Shown here in pieces: positions 26,530 to 43,484 of a DNA stretch of 64,000 nt; the first letter of the stretch is position 1, and every line of letters starts with the position of its first letter. The stretch is from the IMG/VR virus record IMGVR_UViG_3300024255_000006, positions 71,243-135,242 of that record; one strand, 5' to 3'. The DNA comes from a virus. The translations under genes were made by a program, and so were the position numbers. The notes beneath the pieces were generated by a model. It had not been told where the DNA came from and ran no database searches. It worked only from the letters and a program-made list of their open reading frames with translations.

Positions 26530-29500
26530 ATGGCAAAGAAACTAGTATACGAGTATCAGTTTAATGCATCCACAAGGAAAATCAAAATTTATGATAACGT
26601 AAGTGTTAAGAAACTTCTTCTTATTACTAACGTAACTGATAATATCATCCTCTATAACTTCGCTGATGAAGCGAAGGGTGCAGCAAGTGTAACATTTGAT
26701 CCCATCACTGAGCACACAGAAATCACATTAAACTTCGATACAACATCGATGTCTGATAGTGATCAACTTCAAATCTTTATTGAAAAACCAGAAGTTGCAT
26801 TTGAACCATCAGAAACTTTTGTTGACCCAGTATCAAAGATTCGTGTATCTAACCCAGAGAACTTGGTTGATACCGACTTTGAATATGGTCCTCAGGCATC
26901 GAAGTGGGAGACACTTCAGCTTGTAAATAACATTCCTTCTGCATATTCAAATACTTCAGATACTACAATTTCTGGTATTATATCAATTTCAGCAACCAAT
27001 GGTAGTGACGTTATTGTCGTCACTACGAAATTCGAGCACAACCTAAATCCTGGTACTCCAATTGACGTTCGTGGTCTTACTAGTTTCACCGCAGAAGGTT
27101 CGTATCTGATCCAGTCAGTACCAACGCCATCTACATTTACTTATCGTTGCCGTGGTACTCAATCACAAACTGGAAACCTATCTGGTGCATATTCATCTGT
27201 TATTCCTGGTCAGTTCTACTCCAACTCACAGCTAATTCTAGACTCTTATGATGGTCTTCTTGCTGACTCTAGAAACTATATTGTCGATATTCCTGGTGGA
27301 TCGGGCGGTGGTTTCTATATTGATGGTGTAGCTAGCCCAGACCTTACTATTACCAAGAATGGTATCTTCTACTTCACTCAGGAAGCAAACAGCAACACAA
27401 CTCACAGAATTAGATTTGCTAGAGCGGATCAATTTGTCGATGAAGTCACGAAGCAAATCCACCATTTAGATGATGGTACTGAAGGATCACCTGTTGTATT
27501 TGCTACTAACAACACTACTGCTAACGTATATGCTTCCGATAACGGATATATCTACACAGCAGACACCGACATTGAAATTGTAGGATCTCAATGGTTAGAA
27601 ACAACCTACAACCTTACAGCTGGTTCAGCAGCACTTCCAGCTGGTCCTGTATTTAACAAGGGCGCATATGCTTCAACTCTAAAGTTACAAATTAGAGTTG
27701 GTGCAGCTGGTCTAATTGCAACATCAACAGATAACCTAAATTGGACAGTTCAAACTTCTGGTACTCCTAACGATCTTTATGATGTAGATTACGACGGAGC
27801 ATTCTTCACTGTTGTTGGTGATAGTGGAACTGTTCTTCGCTCTGCTGACGGTACTTCCTGGACAGCAGTTGCGGGTACAACAGGTACAACAAACTATAGA
27901 GGTGTAAGATCAAACTCACAAGACCTCGTTATTGTTGGTGCTGGTGGTGAAATCAGACAGTCTTCTGATGGCGGTGCTAACTTAACAGTTAGAACTACAT
28001 CTGGATCAGAAAATCTAGAAGCAGCTGCATGGTCTGGTCAAAAGTGGACAGTTGTTGGTGCATCAGGTGCTGTATACACATCTCCCGATGCTGTTACTTG
28101 GACTAAAGAAACCGCAGTTGGATCTGCTAACAACCTTACTGATATTAAGTGGGATACGGACAATGATCAGTTCGTAATTATTGGTGCTTCTGGAACACTT
28201 CTAACAACTCCAGATGCTAGTACATTTACAACTAGAACTACTGGTCTCTCCAATACACTAATTGGTCTTGCATGTGGAGATGGTGGAAATGGATATCGCA
28301 TCGTAATCATCGATACTCAAGGTGATGGAGCGTATTCGAGTGATGGTGGTGTTAACTGGGTAGCATTCACAACTGGTACAGGTGTTACAACTACTGAGTG
28401 TTACTGGACAGGATATGCATTCAATATCTTCCAGCATACTGGAACTCCAGGAACCAATGCTGCATCTACGTACTTCTCTGCTATCCAACAACCATATACT
28501 GCAATTCCTGCTGGTCAAATCCAATTCGGTGCAAGTGGTACTGTAAGACCAAGAGATATTGTTTGGGTTACTGATGATAACCAGTTTGTTCTTTGTGCAG
28601 ATAACAATGGTGCTGGTACTAATGGTGGTATCTTTGTTTCTTCTGCTGGTACATCTTGGACAGAAAAAAGTGATGCAAACATCCCTAATGAAAGCTTCCT
28701 CAAAGTCCAGTATGCTGGAAATGCATATTGGTTCCTAACTGAAGATAAACTACACTCAACTGCAGACGGTACTACATTTGCTACTTGGACTGAAATTCTA
28801 GATAAATCTAACATCACAACAAACTCAGGTTTTTCTACAGATACTGTTGTTACTGGTGGTTCTGCATATAACGCAGGTACAAATATTTCTCTAACCACTC
28901 TTACTGGTGATGGTTCTGGTGCTGAAGCAACTGTTGTTGTTGTAGGTGGTGTTGTTTCTGATGTTACAATCACCAATGCTGGTAAAGATTACAAGCAAGG
29001 AGATAGAGTACAAATTTCTGGTGGTAACGGAGACGCTATTCTTGAAGTCGCGACTATCGGAACTGGAGTAAACTCAACAGCATCAACATTCAGAGATTTC
29101 TTTATCTCCAGTGACGCTGGTATTATCGCTGTTGTAGGTTCGGATGGAGCAATTGTTTGGTCAATTAATGGTGGTACTTCATTTGAAGTAGATAATGTTG
29201 GAACTAATATTAACTTGAACGGTATCATTAGAGACGACACATACGAAAATCAGTATGCTGTTGTTGGTGATGCTGCTACTGGGGCATTCGTTGCTACTGC
29301 AACTAACCTCGAAACTTGGACAAGAGTTCCTACTTCTAACATCCCAGTTACTACAAATCTCACATCAATCTTCTTTGATGGCGAAAGATATGTTGCTGCT
29401 GGTGCTGCAGGTTCGATCATTTCATCTTATGACGGTACTCACTGGAGTAAAGTTATTGGATATGGTATTGATGCAGATATTAACTTTGCTGCATCATTTA

Positions 29501-32500
29501 CAAATACCAATACGATTACAGGCGAAGGTACGTATCTAGCATTTGGTGTTGATAGAAATGCATCCCATCAAAATGAATCTGGTCTTTGGGTAGCTGAAGA
29601 AGGTCGCAAGCAATATACAGATAGTGTATATGAAACAGCAATCTCTCCAGGTTCTACAGGATCGTATACTAGAATTTTCGTTGATGTAAACACTCCAAAG
29701 TATCTGACTTATTACTGTCAGACTCATGGAATGAACATGAAGGGAAATCTTTTCTTCGATGAGCAATCAATCTCGAAGATTTACATGATGACTGAGCATG
29801 AGAATGGATTCTCGACTGGTACTGATTTCTATGTTGTTAATACAGTTTCTCCAAAGGTTGTAGAGATTGTTGATCCAGCTGGTACTGCACCTGATGGTCG
29901 TGGATATGTTGATATTGTTCAAACCTTGAGCATTAATGCACAAGATACTAGAGGACTTCCTCTAGCAACAGCAGCAGATCAAGGTTATGACGCTCCAGAA
30001 CAAACTGGTAACCAACTAATTGGTTTTAAGGGTTCTTATGAACTGCAGATTCAGTCCAAGAACGTTGATTATTCAACGAACACAATTACTTTTGATGAAG
30101 ATCACAAGTTATATGATGGTGCTGCATTGTACTACTATCCAATGCCTGGTGATAAACCAATTGGTGGTTTGATGAGATCGCAGGTTTATTATGTACAGGT
30201 TGTAAATACTAAAGCAATTAGACTACACAATGCAGGTGTAACTCCATCTTACTATAGCAGTGGAGTTAAGATTGATAAGTTCGATGACTGGGATTATCCA
30301 GTTACCCTAAGAGAATGGGCATTCACTGGAATGCGTCAACCACAAACAGCAGAATATACCACTGAGTATACTCAAGATATTCGCTACGGCATGTCTCATG
30401 CTATCTCTAAAGATGGTAGAACATGTGCTATCGGTGGTAGATATTCTGATGATGGGCAAACGAACCGTGGACAAGTTTGGGTTTATCAGAAGAATCCATT
30501 CACTAATGAGTGGGATTGGAAGCAAAGATTCCAGCCATACACTTCGGCAGGATCATCACAGTATTTTGGTCATGCAGTTGCTCTAAACAAAGACGGTACA
30601 AGACTTATCGTTGGTGCTCCAAGAACTGACCGTGCAGGTAGTGATACTGGTTCATGCTACGTATATGATAGAGCGAAAGCTTACGCTAACATGACTGGTC
30701 CAGAAGATTATGCTAACTACTTCGATGGTAATTACCAGAGCTTCTCGGGTACACATGTATTTGAAAGTAATGATATCTCTGGTATCGATAACGATACATC
30801 CTCTTACATGGGTACTACACTAGATATCAATGATCTAGGAGATTACTTCATTGTTGGTATTCCAAGAAACGATGAAAACGGTGGACAATCTGGTGTTTGT
30901 GTCGTTGCACATCAAACAAACTTTAATACAACCCACCAAAGAAATGGTGGTAGTGGTAGTGGTGAAACTTATGACTATGAAGAGGTTAAACCTACCGATG
31001 GTACTTTTAGTAGTGAGGACTACTTTGGTGCAACAGTCAAGATGGCTGGAGATCAATCCAAGATTGTTATCTCTGCAGATCGTGATGACCAATCTCAGTC
31101 TAATTCTGGTTCGGTTTACATTTTCAACAGAGGATCGGGTAATACTTGGACTCAGGCACAGAGAATTAATTCTCCTGCACCATCTGCGAGTGCATACTTT
31201 GGACAATCAATTGCATACTCCAAAGACACTATGTGGTTGGGTATTGCAGAACCAAGACAAGAGACTAGTCGTGGTAACGACATGGGTCAAGTCCACATCT
31301 ACAACTGGGATAGTGGTACTGGATCGTATGTCTGGAAGCAAACTCTAGAGTGTCCAGAAGGAACTACTAACTGGGCAGATGGTAAGTCTTCAATCCATTT
31401 TGGTGGTAATGAAGTCGATGGTGATAACCCCGACGGTAGCGGAAAAGGTCAAGGCGATGGTCTCGTCATGAGTTATGATGGTTCTGTAATGTGTATTGGT
31501 GTTCCCCAGTACGACATTAGAGACATCAGACCTAATACTAGCTTCTCTGGTACTGACATTACAAATTACAGTAATGTAGGTGCAGCATTCACATATCGTT
31601 TGAATGATACTAAAACTGGATACGATAATGATGGTAAGATCCTTTGTGATTACAGTCATGATGGTAAGTTCGGTGTATCCATGGCTATGGATCAGCACGG
31701 TGAAGAAATGGTTATCGGTGCTCCAGGAACCAATATTCGTTACGATGACTCCACTGTTAATCTGGGTGTCTCGATGTTCTACAGTAGAGCACATACTGCT
31801 AATGATTCATCTGAATCTCCAAGTGCAATTTCTTCAGTTGGATCTGATACACTAACAATTAGTGCTTCAGTATACAATACTCTAAGAGATGAAGACGTAG
31901 TTCTTTACTACCATGCTCCTGCTGCATCTGCTGATGGTTCTGGTGGTGATCAACTAGTCAGTGGTACTAAGTATTACATCACTAAGAGAGGAAGTAATCA
32001 GATTAGTCTCTCTAGTACATTTGATCTTCAGAAAGCAGGTACATATTTAAACCTTAATTCTAGTGCTGGTAGTGGATTACGTAACATCAAGAAACTTCCT
32101 AGAGGTGCTACGTTTGAAAGAGGAAACCACAAATTCGCTCTCTGCTATAGAATTCAGAGAGAAGAGAAGGATGGTTCTTACCAGTGGTACTATAGAACCA
32201 TGTACTGGAAGCTTCAAAACCAAGCAAGTGGTTCTTATCTAAACGGTGTTGGTGCTGCAGGAATTACATATGGTTCTGGTTATGATCTTTATCAATATGG
32301 TGCTAACTCCTATGGTCTAGCAGGTGCTGGTGGATATGTTGGAAACGCTAGTAACGTTGAAAACAGCATGATCTTCCATACCTACAGACCTGGAATTGGA
32401 TATCCACGTCATAGAAAAGTAATTGAAAACACTGGAGTAAGATTCAGAGGTGTATATGCAGAACAACATAACCAAGGATGGGCGCAACATTTAACAAATG

Positions 32501-35500
32501 AAGGTTGTATCTATCCACAGACCAAAGCAATTACAGGTCATAGAGGTGATCCACTTCTACAACCAAGAAACACCTCTGCAGAGAGAAACTTCTACGGTCC
32601 TTACGGTTCTTCAGGAGATTCATCAATTGCTCCTGGTAACTGTGCTGTCTATAATGACAATGCAAACCCATATACAAACGGAACTACCCTAGACGGTCAG
32701 ATCAAAATTTATGGTAACAACAGAGAGTGGAGAAGTTACAACAGAGAAACTGATGTTTCTAACTGGCAGAACGATTGGTCTGGTTCATTGTACTGGATGC
32801 CTTTGTCTAGGGTAAATGATCAAGACACAATCTATTCTGAGAATCACAACCTAATTACCAATGAAGTGTTAACGTTCAACGTTATAACTGGTGAACCAAT
32901 CGAGTATAACAAAAACACTGGTTGGAATACCAGCGACACGGACACGCTAGACAACGGTACTAGCGTATATGTTGAGGTTGTTGATGATAACAGATTCAGA
33001 CTCAAGACAACACTTGCTGGTCAACCCCTAAGACTTCTCCAACTACCTGGAACGTATTCACTAACAGGTGTAATTGATAACCCTAAGAGAAACTCAATGT
33101 ATGTTGAGGATCACCAGTTGTCTGAAAACAACAAGGTTATCTACAGCAATGAGGGAAGTGCAATTATCAGTGGTCTAGTTGATGGTGATACTTACTACAT
33201 TGATGTTATCAATGGTAACAGATTTGCACTAAGAGATTCTGCTTCGGTTGCATTTACTGGTAGAGCAAGATCTCTCAATACAAACAGTGCTCCTAGCAAC
33301 CAAACCAGAATTACCAGACTATCAATTACTACTGGTCTACAACTGGGTATGAAGGTTGATCTAATTGCAAATACTCAGGGTCTATCCCAAGAAGGTGAAT
33401 ACGAGATCACCAATGTTAACTTCACTACTGTAAACGCAGATACTAACTACATCGAAGTCGATAATCAGTGGGGTGGTACTGCTACTTCATTGGTAAGTAA
33501 CGTTTCATTCGCTGCTGCGGTCTCTTCTGAAGTTCTATCTGGTGTTGGTGCTGGTCAACAAGCATTTGAAGATCAGACTTCTGACTTCGGTGTTTCTGAC
33601 GGTGGTTATAAGAACACTGTTATTATCGATGAGAAGACTCTTGAGATTAACGTTCCATTTAAGGTACGTCCTACCAAGAAACTCTTTGATACCAGCAATG
33701 ATGTAAGTCTAGTCAACAACTCATTCACAATCGCTGATCACTTCTTTGTAACTGGTCAGAAAGTTATCTACTCTAACAATGGTGGACTAAATATCGGCGG
33801 TCTATTAAACGATACCGATTACTACGTAATTCAGTTAGATGATAATGAATTCAAACTTGCAGCGACAAGAGCAGAAGCAGAAGCAGGTACTTCTATTGCA
33901 TTAACCGAAGTTCCTGGAGTACCACAGAACCATCTGTTTACCCACGCTAACGTTGCTGGTCGTGTTCTTGGTGCTGGTAGACTTGATATTTCCAATGGTT
34001 CTAGAAGAATCCTTGGTACACAAGGTGATGCTACTTACACCGATACATCCTTCAAGCGTTACTTCAAGGTTGGTGATGTTATCCGTGTCCTAGACACAAA
34101 CACTTCACCTTCAACCATCCACCAGCGTCTAATCACCGCAATTAAGGATGACTTTGAAATGCTGGTTGACGAACCATTCACATTTACCGACGCAAACTCT
34201 CAATACTTTATTGATACTCTTGTTTATGTACGTCCTGATGGATACTATCTCCACAGACCATTTGACGGTGGTATGGAAATCGGTTCATCCAAGTCTCCAG
34301 ATGGTCTAATCTGTCGTCAAACACGTAAGTATTTCCGTTACCAGTCAGGTAAAGGTATCCAGACCTCACTTGCTATCAACTTCAATCCAAAGATCGCTGC
34401 TAAGTCAATGTCTTACAGACAGGTTTCTGGTGATGTTTATGGTAACATCGAGAACTATAGCGTTTCTAACGCTCCTGGTGATGTTTCATGGACATTCACA
34501 GGAGATGCTTCTGGAAGTAACCTTGGACTCACACTCAAGGCAGGTGATACATTGAACATTGCGGTTGCAAATGGATCAGATAATCTCTGGATTACTTCTT
34601 CTACTGCAACTACTGGTCTTGGACCATCTTACGCTGATAACATCAACGTTGGTATCACAAATAACGGTACTAACGATGGTACTATCAAGTGGGATACAGA
34701 CAAAATTACTGCTGGTACATACTACTTCATCTCTCAGCAAAACCCAGTTGCAATGCGTGGTGAGATTGTTATCTCGGACGCAGCAGATGGTGCTAAGAAC
34801 AGAATGGTTATTGTAACAAGATATCCACATAGTGTACAAGAGAACACCAACGTTATTATTAATGACTCAGCTGATGCAGAATTCAATAGCGGAACTAACG
34901 GATGGAAAGTCATTAATCTTGTTGACGACTTCACATTTGAAGTTGACCTCAAGACTTTAATTCCAACATCTTCCAACGCAACTGGATTCCTAGGATATCA
35001 TATCAAGGAATGGTTGAATTCTGCAGTACGCTGTGGTATGTTTGACTTCCAGAATGGATTCTTCTTTGAATTCGATGGAACTGATGTCTACTGTGTAAGA
35101 AGATCTTCTACTCAGCAGATGACTGGTTCAGTTTCTGTTCGCAGGAACAGCAACGAAGTTTCAGGTATAGGTACTAAGTTTACCACTCAACTTGGTTTCG
35201 GTGATAAAGTCGTTATTCGTGGTCAAACCTACAAGGTTGTTAAGGTTACTTCCGATACAACCCTTAAGATTCAACCTTCTTACAGAGGAACCACAACTGA
35301 TAACGTCTTGATCTCCAAGACAGTTGATACTAGGATTCCACAATATAACTGGAATATGGATCACTGCGATGGAACTGGAGAGTCTGGTTACAACCTAGAT
35401 CTCACTAAGATTCAGATGGCGTATATGGATTACTCCTGGTACGGTGCTGGTAAGATCCGCTTTGGATTTAAGGATCAGAACGGACACGTCAAGTACGTCC

Positions 35501-36612
35501 ATGAGTTCAGACATAACAATCGTCTCACCGAATCTTACTTCCGTTCAGGTAACCTACCTGCACGTTATGAGATCGAATCTAGCGGTATCTCGTCTCACAC
35601 ACCAACCCTGTTCCACTGGGGTACTTCGGTCATGATGGATGGTATGTTCCAAGATGACGATGCTTACCTATTCACTGCATCTGGTCAGGTTCTTAAGTAT
35701 ACCAACGAAGATTCAGTTGCGATTACTACCAGAACTGATACTTCATATGTACGTACACAGAGAGTTTCTAACCTCTATAAGCACTACATTGTTCTTAGAT
35801 TTGGTACAACTAACGCCCAAGCAATAACTGCTCAAGCAGCAGCACCTGTTGGTACTTACCTCTATAATGATTCGATCACTGGTTACCTTTCGGGATTCTT
35901 CTCAGATGGTCGTCCAGTCTCCGCATACAATGAAACCAGACTACTCTCAAATGAGTATCGCGCTTCTATTCTATACTATGATGGTACTGCATCTGAACTC
36001 AGCTACTCACCATACAGATCATACAGAGGTTCAACTGGTTACCTGGATGAAAGCGCAAACAAAGTTCCTGGAGGAACAATCTTCTATGCAGGTGCTCCTC
36101 AGGGTGATCCAAACGTCGTTGAGTCTAATATTCCTATTATCTCGATTCGCTTGGCTCCATCAGTTGACTCTTCAATCCAAGGTCTACTTGGTGAAAGAGA
36201 AATCATCAACAGAATGCAACTTAAGTTGAATGCGATTGATATCCAGACATCTTATGAAACTGAGGTTGAACTCAGACTCAACGGTGCTCTAAGTTCTGAC
36301 TCCTGGTATACTGTTGACTCTCCATCCCTATCGCAACTTATCTCACATGAGAAGGGCGACACGATCTCGGGTGGTCTTAAGGTCTTCACCTTCCGCGCAG
36401 CGGGTGGTTCGACAGGATCAGCAGAAACCACGACTCTTGACCTATCGAAACTGATTGACCTCGGTAACTCGATTCAGGGTGGAGATGGCGTATTCCCCAA
36501 CGGTCCTGACGTTCTAACAATTGTTGCGAACATCATTGACTCTTCGGATGTTAGCTCTAGTCAACCTTACACAGTCTCTGGTAAGATCTCCTGGGCAGAA
36601 TCTCAGGCATAA
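26530..36612 (+). CDS. Giant multidomain tail fibre/adhesin (3360 aa) with BNR-type and FG-GAP beta-propellers and cupredoxin-like domains
   Basis: SNPENLVDTDFEYG..KWE and RQTRKYFRYQSGKG family motifs; repeated VVG.SG.V..S.DG..W; seven FG-GAP-like blades (e.g. YFGHAVALNKDGTRLIVGAP...G.CYVY). Confidence 0.75.
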   Translation: MAKKLVYEYQFNASTRKIKIYDNVSVKKLLLITNVTDNIILYNFADEAKGAASVTFDPITEHTEITLNFDTTSMSDSDQLQIFIEKPEVAFEPSETFVDPVSKIRVSNPENLVDTDFEYGPQASKWETLQLVNNIPSAYSNTSDTTISGIISISATNGSDVIVVTTKFEHNLNPGTPIDVRGLTSFTAEGSYLIQSVPTPSTFTYRCRGTQSQTGNLSGAYSSVIPGQFYSNSQLILDSYDGLLADSRNYIVDIPGGSGGGFYIDGVASPDLTITKNGIFYFTQEANSNTTHRIRFARADQFVDEVTKQIHHLDDGTEGSPVVFATNNTTANVYASDNGYIYTADTDIEIVGSQWLETTYNLTAGSAALPAGPVFNKGAYASTLKLQIRVGAAGLIATSTDNLNWTVQTSGTPNDLYDVDYDGAFFTVVGDSGTVLRSADGTSWTAVAGTTGTTNYRGVRSNSQDLVIVGAGGEIRQSSDGGANLTVRTTSGSENLEAAAWSGQKWTVVGASGAVYTSPDAVTWTKETAVGSANNLTDIKWDTDNDQFVIIGASGTLLTTPDASTFTTRTTGLSNTLIGLACGDGGNGYRIVIIDTQGDGAYSSDGGVNWVAFTTGTGVTTTECYWTGYAFNIFQHTGTPGTNAASTYFSAIQQPYTAIPAGQIQFGASGTVRPRDIVWVTDDNQFVLCADNNGAGTNGGIFVSSAGTSWTEKSDANIPNESFLKVQYAGNAYWFLTEDKLHSTADGTTFATWTEILDKSNITTNSGFSTDTVVTGGSAYNAGTNISLTTLTGDGSGAEATVVVVGGVVSDVTITNAGKDYKQGDRVQISGGNGDAILEVATIGTGVNSTASTFRDFFISSDAGIIAVVGSDGAIVWSINGGTSFEVDNVGTNINLNGIIRDDTYENQYAVVGDAATGAFVATATNLETWTRVPTSNIPVTTNLTSIFFDGERYVAAGAAGSIISSYDGTHWSKVIGYGIDADINFAASFTNTNTITGEGTYLAFGVDRNASHQNESGLWVAEEGRKQYTDSVYETAISPGSTGSYTRIFVDVNTPKYLTYYCQTHGMNMKGNLFFDEQSISKIYMMTEHENGFSTGTDFYVVNTVSPKVVEIVDPAGTAPDGRGYVDIVQTLSINAQDTRGLPLATAADQGYDAPEQTGNQLIGFKGSYELQIQSKNVDYSTNTITFDEDHKLYDGAALYYYPMPGDKPIGGLMRSQVYYVQVVNTKAIRLHNAGVTPSYYSSGVKIDKFDDWDYPVTLREWAFTGMRQPQTAEYTTEYTQDIRYGMSHAISKDGRTCAIGGRYSDDGQTNRGQVWVYQKNPFTNEWDWKQRFQPYTSAGSSQYFGHAVALNKDGTRLIVGAPRTDRAGSDTGSCYVYDRAKAYANMTGPEDYANYFDGNYQSFSGTHVFESNDISGIDNDTSSYMGTTLDINDLGDYFIVGIPRNDENGGQSGVCVVAHQTNFNTTHQRNGGSGSGETYDYEEVKPTDGTFSSEDYFGATVKMAGDQSKIVISADRDDQSQSNSGSVYIFNRGSGNTWTQAQRINSPAPSASAYFGQSIAYSKDTMWLGIAEPRQETSRGNDMGQVHIYNWDSGTGSYVWKQTLECPEGTTNWADGKSSIHFGGNEVDGDNPDGSGKGQGDGLVMSYDGSVMCIGVPQYDIRDIRPNTSFSGTDITNYSNVGAAFTYRLNDTKTGYDNDGKILCDYSHDGKFGVSMAMDQHGEEMVIGAPGTNIRYDDSTVNLGVSMFYSRAHTANDSSESPSAISSVGSDTLTISASVYNTLRDEDVVLYYHAPAASADGSGGDQLVSGTKYYITKRGSNQISLSSTFDLQKAGTYLNLNSSAGSGLRNIKKLPRGATFERGNHKFALCYRIQREEKDGSYQWYYRTMYWKLQNQASGSYLNGVGAAGITYGSGYDLYQYGANSYGLAGAGGYVGNASNVENSMIFHTYRPGIGYPRHRKVIENTGVRFRGVYAEQHNQGWAQHLTNEGCIYPQTKAITGHRGDPLLQPRNTSAERNFYGPYGSSGDSSIAPGNCAVYNDNANPYTNGTTLDGQIKIYGNNREWRSYNRETDVSNWQNDWSGSLYWMPLSRVNDQDTIYSENHNLITNEVLTFNVITGEPIEYNKNTGWNTSDTDTLDNGTSVYVEVVDDNRFRLKTTLAGQPLRLLQLPGTYSLTGVIDNPKRNSMYVEDHQLSENNKVIYSNEGSAIISGLVDGDTYYIDVINGNRFALRDSASVAFTGRARSLNTNSAPSNQTRITRLSITTGLQLGMKVDLIANTQGLSQEGEYEITNVNFTTVNADTNYIEVDNQWGGTATSLVSNVSFAAAVSSEVLSGVGAGQQAFEDQTSDFGVSDGGYKNTVIIDEKTLEINVPFKVRPTKKLFDTSNDVSLVNNSFTIADHFFVTGQKVIYSNNGGLNIGGLLNDTDYYVIQLDDNEFKLAATRAEAEAGTSIALTEVPGVPQNHLFTHANVAGRVLGAGRLDISNGSRRILGTQGDATYTDTSFKRYFKVGDVIRVLDTNTSPSTIHQRLITAIKDDFEMLVDEPFTFTDANSQYFIDTLVYVRPDGYYLHRPFDGGMEIGSSKSPDGLICRQTRKYFRYQSGKGIQTSLAINFNPKIAAKSMSYRQVSGDVYGNIENYSVSNAPGDVSWTFTGDASGSNLGLTLKAGDTLNIAVANGSDNLWITSSTATTGLGPSYADNINVGITNNGTNDGTIKWDTDKITAGTYYFISQQNPVAMRGEIVISDAADGAKNRMVIVTRYPHSVQENTNVIINDSADAEFNSGTNGWKVINLVDDFTFEVDLKTLIPTSSNATGFLGYHIKEWLNSAVRCGMFDFQNGFFFEFDGTDVYCVRRSSTQQMTGSVSVRRNSNEVSGIGTKFTTQLGFGDKVVIRGQTYKVVKVTSDTTLKIQPSYRGTTTDNVLISKTVDTRIPQYNWNMDHCDGTGESGYNLDLTKIQMAYMDYSWYGAGKIRFGFKDQNGHVKYVHEFRHNNRLTESYFRSGNLPARYEIESSGISSHTPTLFHWGTSVMMDGMFQDDDAYLFTASGQVLKYTNEDSVAITTRTDTSYVRTQRVSNLYKHYIVLRFGTTNAQAITAQAAAPVGTYLYNDSITGYLSGFFSDGRPVSAYNETRLLSNEYRASILYYDGTASELSYSPYRSYRGSTGYLDESANKVPGGTIFYAGAPQGDPNVVESNIPIISIRLAPSVDSSIQGLLGEREIINRMQLKLNAIDIQTSYETEVELRLNGALSSDSWYTVDSPSLSQLISHEKGDTISGGLKVFTFRAAGGSTGSAETTTLDLSKLIDLGNSIQGGDGVFPNGPDVLTIVANIIDSSDVSSSQPYTVSGKISWAESQA

Positions 36613-40842: not shown

Positions 40843-41166
40843 ATGAAGCTATTAGTTTCGTTATTCGCTTCATTATTCCTAGCACTTCCTGTATGGGCAG
40901 TAGATGTACAAATGGGTGCTGGTGGCAACTTAGCATTTGAACCGAATGAGATCACAATCTCTGCGGGCGATACAATTCATTTCATCAATCAAGCACTACC
41001 TCCACATAATATTATTGTTGAGGCACGTCCAGATCTTTCTAGAGAAGCATTACTATTTGCTCCAGGAGAATCGCAGGACGTTGTATTTGCAGACAAAGGG
41101 GACTATAATTTCTTTTGTGGACCTCATCAAGGAGCAGGTATGACTGGCGTAGTCCATGTGGAGTAA
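40843..41166 (+). CDS. petE: Plastocyanin (auxiliary metabolic gene)
   Basis: Signal peptide ending VWA; V.MG..G.L.FEP; copper ligands HN...C.PH.GAGM intact. Confidence 0.96.
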   Translation: MKLLVSLFASLFLALPVWAVDVQMGAGGNLAFEPNEITISAGDTIHFINQALPPHNIIVEARPDLSREALLFAPGESQDVVFADKGDYNFFCGPHQGAGMTGVVHVE

Positions 41167-41356: not shown

Positions 41357-41448
41357 TGAGCGGACTATTTGTATTTGCATTTATTACACTAATGGTAATT
41401 ACCATGGAGATAACATGGTCTGTAAAAAATAAAGGAAGATTAAAATGA
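41353..41448 (+). CDS. 31-aa single-pass membrane microprotein (MMSGLFVFAFITLMVITMEITWSVKNKGRLK)
   Basis: Read by hand; ATGA overlaps at both ends; TM helix plus basic tail. Confidence 0.55.
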   Translation: MMSGLFVFAFITLMVITMEITWSVKNKGRLK

Positions 41449-41921
41449 AAGTTGGAATGATTGGTTTAGGTCGTACTGGTGAAGGTATGTCTCGCCGTAT
41501 GATTGAGAAAGGAATTGAAGTCTGGGGTTATAGTAGTACAAACTATGAGAATGCCTGTGGACAATATGAAGCAGGATATATTAGTGGATGTGTAACTTCA
41601 CTGGAATTTCTTGTTCAAGCAGTTAAGTCCGATGGTAAGAAATTTACTAGTGCTGGTAAAGTTCCTGGTATTTTTCAAATCACATGTCCTGAGCAAAAGG
41701 CAGAAGACACTCTAGATGAGTTACTGCCGTTACTCGAAGAGGGTGATATTGTTATTGATTACAGCACCAATGACATCTCAAAATGTAAGGAACTGGAACT
41801 GTATTGTTCCAAGTTAGGTATCTCATATATCTTCTCTGGAGTATATGGAGCAACCCATGCTGTAAATGCATGTTCTAAAATTTTCCAATCGCTATCACCA
41901 GGTAATGCTATCCGAATTTGA
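41445..41921 (+). CDS. Truncated 6-phosphogluconate-dehydrogenase-like protein (NAD(P)-binding domain only)
   Basis: MKVGMIGLGR.G..M...M...G.EV.GY; L.EGDIVID; only 158 aa, with no KMVHNGIEY catalytic segment. Confidence 0.8.
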   Translation: MKVGMIGLGRTGEGMSRRMIEKGIEVWGYSSTNYENACGQYEAGYISGCVTSLEFLVQAVKSDGKKFTSAGKVPGIFQITCPEQKAEDTLDELLPLLEEGDIVIDYSTNDISKCKELELYCSKLGISYIFSGVYGATHAVNACSKIFQSLSPGNAIRI

Positions 41922-42087
41922 TTACGTTGAAGCACCCACCGAAGGTGAAGTTGATAAGTGGGGGTTTACTATCAAACCCACTATCAGTGATAATGAATTG
42001 ATCCTTCGATGTTTAAGAAATGCTCCGTGTGGATCTGATAGGAAACAAGCAATGAAACTAATTAAAATCTACGAGGACAAAATTTAA
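41905..42087 (+). CDS. Hypothetical protein (likely start ATG41905)
   Basis: ORF track 41866..42087; the later ATG gives a short overlap with the gnd-like gene; TAATG coupling to the next ORF. Confidence 0.55.
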   Translation: MLSEFDYVEAPTEGEVDKWGFTIKPTISDNELILRCLRNAPCGSDRKQAMKLIKIYEDKI

Positions 42088-42218
42088 TGACCCTAGCACA
42101 TGTCCTACTTTTCGGATCACTACCATTTATATGTGCCACCGCATATTTCGGGTACAGAAAAGGTGAAAATAACTATTACGAAACTGACGCCTACTCAGGA
42201 AATGGAACAGCGCATTAG
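42087..42218 (+). CDS. ndhP: NdhP-like subunit of photosynthetic complex I (NDH-1L), 43 aa
   Basis: MTLAHVLLFGSLPFICATAYFGYRKGENNYYETDAYSGNGTAH. One TM helix followed by FG....YY.TD.Y.GNG.AH matches the recalled NdhP C-terminus (FGTRNGFYDTDQYHGNGSAH). Not in the ORF track. Confidence 0.88.
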   Translation: MTLAHVLLFGSLPFICATAYFGYRKGENNYYETDAYSGNGTAH

Positions 42219-42414
42219 AATGAGATTTGCATTCGCTATGTCTTCATTCGGACGAATGTTTAAACCTTCAGGTATATCACACGAAATGAGAATGCTCTGC
42301 AAAGACTGGTCTGAAAATTCTAATGAAGATCCACCCAAAAAAGACTTGTATCAAGTTGATCGTTACTTCTTAGAACTCTGGAAAAAAAGAAATGAATCAT
42401 CAGAAGAAAATTAA
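42202..42414 (+). CDS. Hypothetical protein (start 42202 or 42220)
   Basis: The 3' part of the track ORF 42100..42414; its 5' part overlaps ndhP in another frame. Confidence 0.5.
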   Translation: MEQRIRMRFAFAMSSFGRMFKPSGISHEMRMLCKDWSENSNEDPPKKDLYQVDRYFLELWKKRNESSEEN

Positions 42415-42547
42415 AAAGTTAGAGAAAGAAAACATTATGTTGAAACTAGAAAATTTGAAGCTAAAATTGGAACTACATGAATTAAATAAAGAGTGGGTAC
42501 ATCCCAGATCATGCCTCCACAATTCAGATCCTTGGCCAGATTTATAA
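42392..42547 (+). CDS. 51-aa coiled-coil microprotein (MNHQKKIKKLEKENIMLKLENLKLKLELHEL...)
   Basis: Read by hand; leucine heptad pattern; fills the gap between coupled ORFs. Confidence 0.5.
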   Translation: MNHQKKIKKLEKENIMLKLENLKLKLELHELNKEWVHPRSCLHNSDPWPDL

Positions 42548-42549
42548 AA

Positions 42550-42642
42550 ATGAAACCAGAAACTAGTCTTTCAGCAACAATTATATTTGGTTTGATTATA
42601 GGTTTTGTGTCTTGGAGTTTAGTAAATGCTTATCCATTATGA
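42550..42642 (+). CDS. ndhQ: NdhQ-like subunit of NDH-1L (30 aa; 43 aa if started at ATG42511)
   Basis: MKPETSLSATIIFGLIIGFVSWSLVNAYPL aligns without gaps to the recalled NdhQ TM/C-terminus (AISAVLILGFIAGLIWWALHTAY); ATGA overlap with the next ORF. Confidence 0.7.
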   Translation: MKPETSLSATIIFGLIIGFVSWSLVNAYPL

Positions 42643-42800
42643 TGTTACAGTTTGCTAGATTTTGTGGAACAGTATTAAACAACCCATGGGGATGTGGACT
42701 ATTGGCATGGTGCCTAGTCTTCGTTCCCATTATTGGTATGTGGGCAGTCCATACTTATGGTTGGCAACATTGGGAACCTTTTAACAAAGCACATAAATGA
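42639..42800 (+). CDS. Small membrane protein (start likely ATG42639)
   Basis: LLAWCLVFVPIIGMWAVH TM helix; ATGA coupling on both sides. Confidence 0.6.
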   Translation: MMLQFARFCGTVLNNPWGCGLLAWCLVFVPIIGMWAVHTYGWQHWEPFNKAHK

Positions 42801-43006
42801 ATTTACTATTAAGACCTCTTGATAATGCTAACGACCCTGTGTGGTCAGTAATTATCTGTGTGATACTTGGAGTTGCAGGTGCATTATTTGTAGTTGTATA
42901 CATATTAAGACAAGCATTTGCAGAGTTAGAAAATGGGAGCATTGACACCCCCAAGCAGAAAGAGCTGCTACAACTTCCGAGTGACGGAGATCAACCGTGT
43001 CCTTGA
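42797..43006 (+). CDS. Small membrane protein
   Basis: DPVWSVIICVILGVAGALFVVVYIL TM helix. Confidence 0.6.
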   Translation: MNLLLRPLDNANDPVWSVIICVILGVAGALFVVVYILRQAFAELENGSIDTPKQKELLQLPSDGDQPCP

Positions 43007-43391
43007 TGGTGATACTATTGATGTTACTATCGACCTCGGGTTTGATTTATACAAGAAAGAAAGAGTTAGAGTTGCAGGAGTTGATACGCCAGAGAAAAGG
43101 ACGAGAAACCTAGAGGAGAAAGCACTTGGAATCGAAGCAACCAACTGGCTCAAAGAAAAACTGGAAGGTACGTTGGCTGGTGATGATGAGTTGTCTGTTA
43201 GGACTGAACTTGTTGGTGGTACTGGGAAGTATGGGCGTCTTCTGGGTTGGCTTTACATCGGGGATAGCAGCGTGTCCCTCAACGAGCAAATGATTGAGGA
43301 GGGTTATGCTCATGCCTACGACGGAGGAACAAAAAATATGGACCTTGAAGCACTCAGGGAAATCAGAAGGGCGCACGGTACATTAGTATAG
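42933..43391 (+). CDS. Staphylococcal-nuclease (thermonuclease)-like endonuclease
   Basis: RVLDGDTID, R..GVDTPE, KYGRLLG, LNEQMIEEGYA motifs. Confidence 0.9.
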   Translation: MGALTPPSRKSCYNFRVTEINRVLDGDTIDVTIDLGFDLYKKERVRVAGVDTPEKRTRNLEEKALGIEATNWLKEKLEGTLAGDDELSVRTELVGGTGKYGRLLGWLYIGDSSVSLNEQMIEEGYAHAYDGGTKNMDLEALREIRRAHGTLV

Positions 43392-43484
43392 GATGTGTAA
43401 ACCAACACTTATAAAAAAGTAGCCTATCGATACACAATTTTCACCTACATAGTCCTATAATACTTTGTATCAGAGTGTAAAGAA

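What the first reader, a model, noticed from the sequence alone, without database searches (positions are those of the whole stretch)
42511..42642. Unannotated NdhQ-like microprotein, completing the NDH-1L-specific pair
SLSATIIFGLIIGFVSWSLVNAY aligns without gaps to recalled NdhQ AISAVLILGFIAGLIWWALHTAY, conserving S-A, G-x-I-x-G, W-x-L and A-Y. An in-frame ATG at 42511 would give 43 aa (MPPQFRSLARFIKMKPE...), close to NdhQ length. NdhQ is the other NDH-1L-specific small subunit. I am not aware of a description of a phage ndhQ, or of ndhP and ndhQ together within about 330 nt in a phage.
Basis: partly seen in the sequence, partly recalled or inferred. Interest (0 to 1): 0.82.

Follow-up and report, generated by a model that had tools for sequence, protein, structure and literature searches.

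The report
Unannotated cyanophage copy of NdhQ
This T4-like cyanophage carries a real but normally unannotated 30-codon gene that is a shortened copy of its host's NdhQ; it lies 331 bases after the phage's NdhP gene, so the phage encodes both one-helix subunits that hold the host's photosynthetic NDH-1L complex together.

Summary
A profile of 25 cyanobacterial NdhQ proteins picks this ORF as the single outlier among all 1,658 six-frame segments of the window (16.5 bits, next 7.2). No composition-preserving shuffle out of 40,000 reaches its score. Marine picocyanobacteria, the hosts, have a short NdhQ of 36-40 aa that lacks the canonical N-terminal motif and ends in F-[IV]-V-W-G-L-x-N-A-Y-P. 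The phage ORFs share that ending. A profile of the phage ORFs finds the NdhQ locus as best genome-wide hit in 5 of 5 host-family genomes.

The start is wrong. The conserved start is ATG 42550 (30 aa), not 42511 (43 aa).

The gene belongs to a large cyanophage microprotein family. I found 104 distinct peptides in 131 IMG/VR loci, under purifying selection. ndhP lies on the same strand in half of those loci. The ORF is not annotated in any GenBank isolate I inspected.

Assembly into NDH-1L is inferred, not shown. Phage ndhP is known. I found no paper that reports a phage ndhQ. This scan has already reached the same conclusion on other phage genomes.

The parts
42550..42642 (+). Phage ndhQ-like gene: 30 codons plus TGA, product MKPETSLSATIIFGLIIGFVSWSLVNAYPL. 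It has one transmembrane helix and a C-terminal F-V-x-W-[GS]-L-x-N-A-Y-P motif.
   Evidence: Top outlier of the window for both NdhQ HMMs. The start ATG is conserved in all relatives, and pairwise dN/dS is mostly 0.1-0.4 with third-position changes dominant. Syntenic homologs occur in S-MbCM7 and S-CAM9. It matches no PHROG family, whereas every neighbouring ORF does.
42511..42549 (+). It is most likely not translated as part of this gene.
   Evidence: The upstream context is not conserved among relatives and is closed by a stop in S-MbCM7. It overlaps the conserved C-terminus of ORF 42392-42547 in another frame.
42087..42218 (+). Phage ndhP (43 aa, ends in GNGTAH), the partner small subunit of NDH-1L.
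   Evidence: PDB NdhP 6khi_P at E 3.9e-4. It matches phrog_2173 over its full length. tblastn finds it in 383 GenBank phage records. Phage ndhP is reported in PMC12801897 and PMC10452541.
42392..42547 (+). Upstream 51-aa coiled-coil ORF (phrog_2352). Its TAA stop lies 2 nt before the ndhQ-like ATG.
   Evidence: Its C-terminus W[VI]HP[RQ]SCLHNSDPW is conserved in S-MbCM7 and S-CAM9. The ORF is absent from several relatives that still have the ndhQ-like gene.
42639..42800 (+). Downstream 53-aa ORF (phrog_1184). Its ATG overlaps the ndhQ-like stop (ATGA), which suggests translational coupling.
   Evidence: It is conserved in S-MbCM100, S-MbCM7 and S-CAM9.
40843..41166 (+). petE (plastocyanin), at the upstream end of the same-strand gene run.
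   Evidence: phrog_515 at E 3e-59. No terminator-like site was found on the + strand between 40721 and 43821.
41445..41921 (+). Short gnd (158 aa, NAD-binding part of 6-phosphogluconate dehydrogenase), in the same gene run.
   Evidence: phrog_3646 at E 2e-100, matching 158 of 158 profile positions. Relatives such as S-CAM9 have a 345-aa form.

Best explanation
Window 42550-42642 is a real 30-codon phage gene, derived from and homologous to the short NdhQ of marine picocyanobacteria. This part is shown by sequence evidence. The remaining steps are inferred.

The one-helix product would insert into the host thylakoid membrane. There it would take the NdhQ position on NdhD1/NdhF1 of the host NDH-1L complex, while the phage NdhP encoded 331 nt upstream takes the opposite side. 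In cyanobacteria the loss of either subunit makes NDH-1L fall apart. A phage-made supply of both clamps would keep the NdhD1/NdhF1 module attached while host protein synthesis declines. That would sustain ferredoxin-to-plastoquinone cyclic electron flow and ATP supply for phage replication. This fits the neighbouring electron-transport and pentose-phosphate genes: petE and gnd here, and PTOX, gnd and talC between ndhQ and ndhP in related phages.
For: Homology:
- The canonical NdhQ HMM ranks the ORF first of 1,658 window segments (16.5 against 7.2 bits).
- All phage homologs score 14-21 bits and align colinearly to model positions 21-44.
- 0 of 40,000 shuffles reach the observed score.
- Natural background from 29,251 phage segments peaks at 11.6 bits.
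- NdhQ chains are the only PDB hits of the single sequence and the top hit of the 65-sequence profile.
- The NdhQ profile hits 55 of 61 genomes of the host family. Their ORFs are 36-40 aa, lack the DLNRGIMKFxGAD motif and end in F[IV]VWGLxNAYP, as the phage ORFs do.
- One of these host ORFs is the Prochlorococcus MIT 9303 protein that UniRef names NdhQ.
- Against the picocyanobacterial HMM, S-MbCM7 scores 30.9 bits, P0002 28.3, S-CAM9 27.5 and the window 18.9.
- The phage profile A1 finds the NdhQ locus as best hit in 5 of 5 host-family genomes, at 25-31 bits against 12 for the next hit.
- hhalign gives 92.7% (A1 against canonical NdhQ), 98.5% (A3 against the picocyanobacterial form) and 95.3% (A3 against canonical).

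Real gene:
- The ATG is conserved, the stops overlap neighbouring genes, and dN/dS is mostly 0.1-0.4.
- 104 distinct peptides in 131 of 133 IMG/VR loci keep a 26-36 aa one-helix ORF that ends right after AYP.
- An unbiased marine-clade profile searched against 1.84 billion proteins returns only this microprotein family at E<=0.001.

Function by context:
- ndhP lies on the same strand in 65 of 131 loci, and in 11 of the 28 loci with at least 3 kb on both sides.
- In other phages ndhQ and ndhP bracket PTOX, gnd or talC.
- NdhP and NdhQ sandwich NdhD1, contact NdhF1, lipids and beta-carotene, and each is needed for NDH-1L stability (PMC6992706 and PMC7021789).
Against: - There is no direct evidence of translation, membrane insertion or association with NDH-1L.
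- The phage form is shorter than the host form. Its N-tail is 3-4 residues, neutral or basic and never acidic. The host N-tail is about 11 residues and acidic in 95% of cases. Insertion or contacts on that side could therefore differ.
- The host-invariant glycines of LLGGIG in the N-terminal half of the helix are not kept in the phages.
- The window's own copy has WSL instead of the host-invariant WGL and scores lowest of its family on the host HMM.
- The phage-to-host link is significant at genome scale and profile-profile scale. No host NdhQ reaches E<=0.001 in the 1.84-billion-protein search, as expected for 30 residues.
- Most of A3 was collected with a DNA pattern for the C-terminal motif, so its match to the host profile in those columns is partly built in. 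A1 and A5 are free of this bias.
Confidence: 0.55

Rival explanations
1. The gene is an NdhQ homolog that acts as a decoy or remodeller. The truncated phage peptide would compete with host NdhQ for its site and weaken or alter NDH-1L. For example, it could release NDH-1M or change which NdhD/NdhF module is bound, rather than stabilise the complex.
For: The phage form lacks the acidic host N-tail and has a neutral or basic one. It has lost the host-invariant GG of the helix. It keeps mainly the C-terminal half of the helix, as expected for a minimal binding element.
Against: It usually travels with a full-length ndhP. Its gene neighbours are petE, PTOX, gnd and talC, which phages are thought to use to keep electron flow running. 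The hosts themselves have already lost the long canonical N-terminus, so N-terminal shortening does not by itself abolish function.
Confidence: 0.15
2. It is a small phage membrane protein with a role unrelated to NDH-1, such as a membrane anchor, a lysis or superinfection-exclusion helper, or a partner of another thylakoid complex. Its likeness to NdhQ would be convergent, or a relic of descent without retained function.
For: Only about 24 residues of a hydrophobic helix align. The ESM Atlas look-up returned only generic small membrane proteins at scores below the lead threshold. ndhP is missing from the fetched stretch in 17 of the 28 loci with at least 3 kb on both sides.
Against: The shared motif is specific: F-x-x-W-[GAS]-L-x-x-A-Y, placed 1-6 residues from the C-terminus. 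Shuffles and natural helices do not reach the score. The reciprocal best hit is NdhQ in 5 of 5 genomes. Linkage to ndhP is far above what a random position in a genome of roughly 170-200 kb would give.
Confidence: 0.1
3. It is not a gene. The open frame would be a chance ORF in a spacer, or the out-of-frame shadow of neighbouring genes.
For: It is very short, has no obvious Shine-Dalgarno sequence, is not annotated in any GenBank relative inspected and matches no PHROG family.
Against: The ORF is kept in 131 of 133 loci with 104 different peptides. dN is below dS in every pair. The ATG is conserved while the upstream gene changes. Between the stop of the upstream ORF and the start of the downstream ORF it does not overlap other conserved ORFs.
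Confidence: 0.02

Closest known systems
Short NdhQ of marine and freshwater picocyanobacteria (36-40 aa; for example the 39-aa Prochlorococcus marinus MIT 9303 protein that UniRef names 'NADH dehydrogenase subunit NdhQ')
   Same: Both are one-helix microproteins without the canonical N-terminal motif. Both have the same C-terminal signature, F-[IV]-x-W-G-L-x-[NH]-A-Y-P, followed by 0-5 residues. They are reciprocal best hits.
   Different: The phage form is 26-36 aa, and 30 aa here. Its N-tail is 3-4 residues and neutral or basic, against about 11 acidic residues in the host. The host-invariant LLGGIG glycines are not kept. The window's copy has WSL instead of WGL. It is encoded by a virus.
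Canonical NdhQ (45-47 aa; chain Q of Thermosynechococcus NDH-1L structures 6L7O, 6KHI, 6NBY, 6HUM; Norf6 of Synechocystis 6803)
   Same: The transmembrane helix and the W-[AGS]-L-x-x-A-Y ending align without gaps. The columns S24, W38, A43 and Y44 are invariant in NdhQ and are kept in the window's ORF.
   Different: The most conserved part of canonical NdhQ, the N-terminal D-[LF]-N-R-G-I-M-K-F-x-G-A-D-x-P, is entirely missing.
Cyanophage ndhP (auxiliary metabolic gene; phrog_2173; T4-GC 248)
   Same: It is also a host-derived one-helix NDH-1L-specific subunit carried by T4-like cyanophages. It lies in the same operon and on the same strand, 331 nt upstream here.
   Different: ndhP is a different protein family that sits on the opposite side of NdhD1. 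It is full-length relative to the host form, already reported in phages (PMC12801897, PMC10452541) and far more common in isolates, with 383 GenBank records.

Membership tests
NdhQ (NDH-1L small subunit Q) | Microprotein of at most about 50 aa with a single transmembrane helix | tested here: met
   The product is 30 aa, with a hydrophobic stretch from about residue 7 to 25 flanked by MKPET and NAYPL.
NdhQ (NDH-1L small subunit Q) | Significant match to an NdhQ sequence profile over the helix and the C-terminal W-[AGS]-L-x-x-A-Y motif near the C-terminus | tested here: met
   Canonical HMM: 16.5-18.2 bits, ranked 1 of 1,658, with 0 of 40,000 shuffles reaching the score. Picocyanobacterial HMM: 17.5-18.9 bits for the window and 27-31 bits for close phage relatives. 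hhalign 92.7-98.5%.
NdhQ (NDH-1L small subunit Q) | Conserved N-terminal motif D-[LF]-N-R-G-I-M-K-F-x-G-A-D-x-P of canonical NdhQ | tested here: not met
   The motif is absent from the phage ORF. It is also absent from the NdhQ of the host group, one of which a public source names NdhQ. It therefore defines the canonical subgroup and not the whole family.
NdhQ (NDH-1L small subunit Q) | Reciprocal best hit with the host's NdhQ gene | tested here: met
   The phage profile A1 hits the same locus as the NdhQ profile A2 in G212, G305, G260, G144 and G348, at 25-31 bits against 12 or less for the next hit.
NdhQ (NDH-1L small subunit Q) | Physical subunit of NDH-1L, bound to NdhD1/NdhF1, and needed for stability of the complex | not testable with these tools
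   This needs biochemistry on infected cells or complementation of a mutant.
Cyanophage auxiliary metabolic gene | Host-derived metabolic gene inside a phage genome, flanked by phage genes and kept under purifying selection | tested here: met
   The window is a T4-like cyanomyovirus, with terminase, endonuclease, petE and gnd nearby and about 86% nucleotide identity to ACG-2014a/S-MbCM100. A host homolog is identified. dN/dS is below 1 in all pairs.

The most novel reading that the evidence does not exclude
Cyanophages do not merely top up host subunits. They would build a virus-specific version of NDH-1L. The truncated, basic-tailed phage NdhQ and the phage NdhP would replace the host clamps and change the behaviour of the complex, for example its stability under high light, its choice of NdhD/NdhF module, or its coupling to the phage PTOX that is encoded between the two genes in related phages. 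That would create a dedicated viral route from NDH-1L through plastoquinone to PTOX.
Probability: 0.15. Interest if true: 0.8.

Novelty: new member of a known kind. Interest (0 to 1): 0.6.

Why it matters
Cyanophage auxiliary genes are a main way in which viruses reshape ocean photosynthesis. This gene has been missed because it is only about 30 codons long. It was not annotated in any isolate genome I inspected, matches no PHROG family and appears in no paper I could search. Yet it forms a large family, often linked to ndhP and to PTOX, gnd or talC.

If the product joins NDH-1L, phages carry the complete pair of clamps that decide whether the NdhD1/NdhF1 module stays on the complex. That would make NDH-1L stability, and so cyclic electron flow and ATP supply, a direct viral target.

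The idea is easy to test with existing phage-host pairs such as S-MbCM7 on Synechococcus WH7803 and with existing ndhQ mutants. The finding also shows that the host's own short NdhQ is easily overlooked.

Tried and rejected
- Pfam and NCBIfam hold no NdhP or NdhQ model, and nothing useful matched.
- The search for homologous proteins with the 43-aa reading gave only 3 near-identical microproteins.
- The Thermosynechococcus NdhQ fragment (39 aa) was too short for the search for homologous proteins and the search for related loci.
- As a single sequence, that fragment found nothing in two picocyanobacterial genomes. A profile was needed.
- A petE query against genome contigs mostly returned phage contigs binned into MAGs. 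Two of these gave usable genome handles.
- A PDB search with the 5-sequence phage profile put a 15-residue stretch of mouse ND5 first (E 0.009) and NdhQ next. I treat the ND5 hit as chance, because it vanished with the 65-sequence profile, where NdhQ is first.
- Complex prediction of the phage peptide with Synechococcus WH7803 NdhD (NU4C_SYNPW) gave no answer: score 0.23 against a mark of 0.32. I use it neither for nor against binding.
- The ESM Atlas returned only generic small membrane proteins at 0.83, which is below a lead.
- The promoter and terminator scan showed nothing above shuffles near the ORF.
- The papers of Nowaczyk 2011 and Zhao 2015 are not held. I could not check whether they mention phage NdhQ, or which way round NdhQ sits in the membrane.
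- I considered a phylogeny of phage against host NdhQ and left it out, because about 28 aligned columns cannot resolve it.

Full report
WHAT THE WINDOW IS. The window is the last 64 kb of a 135-kb IMG/VR virus record. Its nearest GenBank relatives are T4-like Synechococcus myoviruses (ACG-2014a and S-MbCM100, about 86% nucleotide identity over 41400-43400). Around the finding all genes run on the + strand:
- petE, 40843-41166
- a short gnd, 41445-41921
- a phrog_1201 ORF
- ndhP, 42087-42218
- a phrog_593 ORF
- a 51-aa coiled-coil ORF, 42392-42547
- the candidate ORF
- a 53-aa ORF starting at 42639
- a 69-aa membrane ORF
- an endonuclease

No terminator-like site lies on the + strand between 40721 and 43821.

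THE OBSERVATION. The neighbouring ORF matches PDB NdhP at E 3.9e-4.

Neither Pfam nor NCBIfam has an NdhP or NdhQ model, so I built my own. A search of 301 cyanobacterial genomes with the Thermosynechococcus fragment gave about 110 clear NdhQ genes. From 25 distinct ones I made an HMM (alignment A2).
- Against every stop-to-stop segment of at least 20 aa in the window (1,658 segments), the candidate is the lone outlier at 16.5 bits and E 4.3e-4. The next segment scores 7.2 bits.
- None of 20,000 composition-preserving shuffles, and none of 20,000 shuffles of the hydrophobic core alone, reach the peptide's 18.2 bits.
- Among 29,251 natural six-frame segments of 133 phage loci, the best unrelated one scores 11.6 bits.

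THE START CODON. The proposed ATG at 42511 does not hold. Syntenic homologs exist in S-MbCM7 (29 aa) and S-CAM9 (26-33 aa). In S-MbCM7 the frame is closed just before the ATG. In IMG/VR relatives the ATG equivalent to 42550 is always present, but the sequence upstream of it is not conserved. In six relatives the gene directly follows a different ORF, whose TAA overlaps the ATG. In the window, the upstream ORF's stop lies 2 nt before ATG 42550. The next ORF's ATG overlaps the TGA stop (ATGA). The gene is therefore 42550-42642, 30 codons. Pairwise dN/dS among relatives is mostly 0.1-0.4, and third-position changes dominate.

THE LINK TO THE HOST. The canonical NdhQ sequence alone finds nothing in picocyanobacterial genomes, but the profile does. 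It hits 55 of 61 genomes of that family. These host ORFs are only 36-40 aa. They lack the canonical N-terminal DLNRGIMKFxGADxP motif and end in F-[IV]-V-W-G-L-x-N-A-Y-P. Intermediate forms in the same family carry both the canonical N-terminus and the WGLTNAYP ending (L040 and L041). One of the short ORFs is identical to a Prochlorococcus MIT 9303 protein that UniRef names NdhQ.

The phage ORFs share exactly this ending: FVSWSLVNAYPL here, FVVWGLGHAYPS in S-MbCM7 and FVTWGLQNAYPH in S-CAM9. Against a picocyanobacterial NdhQ HMM they score 30.9 bits (S-MbCM7), 28.3 (P0002), 27.5 (S-CAM9) and 18.9 (window). The window segment is again the lone outlier of the window, at 17.5 bits against 8.3 for the next.

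In the reverse direction, a profile of five phage ORFs (A1, collected by synteny and similarity only) finds the NdhQ locus as best six-frame hit in all five host-family genomes tried. The scores are 25-31 bits, against 12 for the next hit. Profile-profile comparison gives 92.7% (A1 against canonical), 98.5% with E 1.9e-15 (A3 against picocyanobacterial) and 95.3% (A3 against canonical).

One caveat applies. Most of A3 was collected with a DNA pattern for the C-terminal motif, so its match in those columns is partly built in. A1 and A5 are free of this bias.

A LARGE HIDDEN FAMILY. A1 found 13 IMG/VR loci. In 131 of the 133 loci, the match sits at the end of a 26-36 aa one-helix ORF, which gives 104 distinct peptides. 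An unbiased profile of the marine clade (A5), scored against 1.84 billion representative proteins, returns 11 proteins at E<=0.001. All are this microprotein type, including the non-marine-looking clade and two fusions with upstream ORFs. No other family appears.

Among GenBank isolates I found the gene in S-MbCM7, S-CAM9, S-SRM01 and DSL-LC03, and in divergent form in S-ShM2, S-RIM14 and S-SSM2. In the four records whose annotation I inspected, it has no CDS of its own. It matches no PHROG family, although all its neighbours do.

CONTEXT. ndhP lies on the same strand in 65 of the 131 loci, and in 11 of the 28 with at least 3 kb on both sides. This is far more than a random position in a genome of roughly 170-200 kb would give. 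Two arrangements occur:
- ndhP lies 150-330 nt upstream of ndhQ, as in this window.
- ndhQ lies upstream, with 0.2-2.5 kb between the two genes.

In four examples of the second arrangement, the genes between them are PTOX (L118, L136), gnd plus PTOX (L113) and talC (L215).

ndhP itself is present in 383 GenBank phage records. That is much more common than the 'uncommon' stated in PMC12801897.

MECHANISM. The cryo-EM papers show NdhP and NdhQ on opposite sides of NdhD1. Both contact NdhF1, lipids and beta-carotene, and together with NdhD1 and NdhF1 they form the NDH-1L-specific module. Loss of either subunit disassembles NDH-1L (PMC6992706, PMC7021789, PMC12038448).

The best-supported reading is that the phage supplies both clamps, to keep NDH-1L, and thus cyclic electron flow and ATP supply, running during infection. 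That step is inference from homology and gene neighbourhood. Nothing here shows translation or assembly.

Some differences could matter:
- The phage N-tail is 3-4 residues and never acidic, while the host's is about 11 residues and acidic in 95% of cases.
- The host's invariant helix glycines are not kept in the phages.
- The window's copy has WSL in place of WGL.

These differences leave room for a decoy or remodelling role.

WHAT IS KNOWN. Phage ndhP, ndhI and ndhD have been reported (PMC12801897, PMC10452541). Full-text searches for NdhQ together with phage or virus terms found only a reference title. The original NdhP/NdhQ paper is not held, so I cannot exclude a mention there.

Earlier notes of this scan report the same phage NdhQ on other genomes. 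I read them after reaching my own conclusion. They agree with it but are not independent evidence.

VERDICT. The ORF is a real gene and a homolog of host NdhQ (about 0.9). It starts at 42550. It is a new member of a known kind, namely a cyanophage auxiliary gene for a photosynthetic complex subunit. Its function in NDH-1L is plausible but untested (about 0.55).

Noticed in passing
window 42087-42414: ndhP (42087-42218) is overlapped in another frame by the long reading of the phrog_593 / T4-GC 1021 ORF (42100-42414). An internal ATG near 42203 would cut the overlap to about 16 nt. GenBank relatives annotate either the long form without ndhP (S-MbCM100) or ndhP plus the short form (ACG-2014a). 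The conserved N-terminus of the long form is probably the shadow of ndhP.
   Followed up: partly
window 41445-41921: gnd is only 158 aa here, covering the NAD-binding part. It matches a 158-position PHROG profile end to end, so the short form is itself a conserved phage family. S-CAM9 and IMG/VR locus L113 have forms of about 345 aa.
   Followed up: partly
L001:2441-2530 (S-MbCM100) and L003:1717-1812 (S-MbCM7): A second unannotated one-helix micro-ORF of 29-31 aa (ending CLFGLFLFxLSVxQE) occupies the same slot. It is present instead of the ndhQ-like gene in ACG-2014a/S-MbCM100 and next to it in S-MbCM7.
   Followed up: no
P0043, P0035; L120:11444-11671: There are natural fusions or read-throughs of the ndhQ-like ORF. 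In P0043 (74 aa) the upstream coiled-coil ORF is fused in frame to it. In P0035 the end of the T4-GC 1021 ORF is fused to it. L120 has a C-terminal extension past AYP. These could be real variants or assembly frameshifts.
   Followed up: no
L118, L136, L113, L215 (IMG/VR loci): In another cyanophage lineage, ndhQ-like and ndhP bracket PTOX (AOX family), gnd plus PTOX, or talC. This looks like a swappable slot between the two NDH-1L subunit genes.
   Followed up: partly
GenBank phage collection: ndhP-like ORFs occur in 383 phage records, including syn9, S-RSM4, S-RIM2 and S-RIM8. Most are labelled hypothetical or left unannotated. A recent paper (PMC12801897) calls ndhP uncommon in cyanophages.
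   Followed up: partly
L006, L009: Contigs carrying a phage-like petE (60-85% identical to the window's) sit in MAGs labelled Verrucomicrobiales and Euryarchaeota. They are probably cyanophage contigs binned into the wrong genomes.
   Followed up: no
window 26530-36612: A single 3,360-aa ORF on the + strand, presumably a giant structural or fibre protein. I did not examine it.
   Followed up: no
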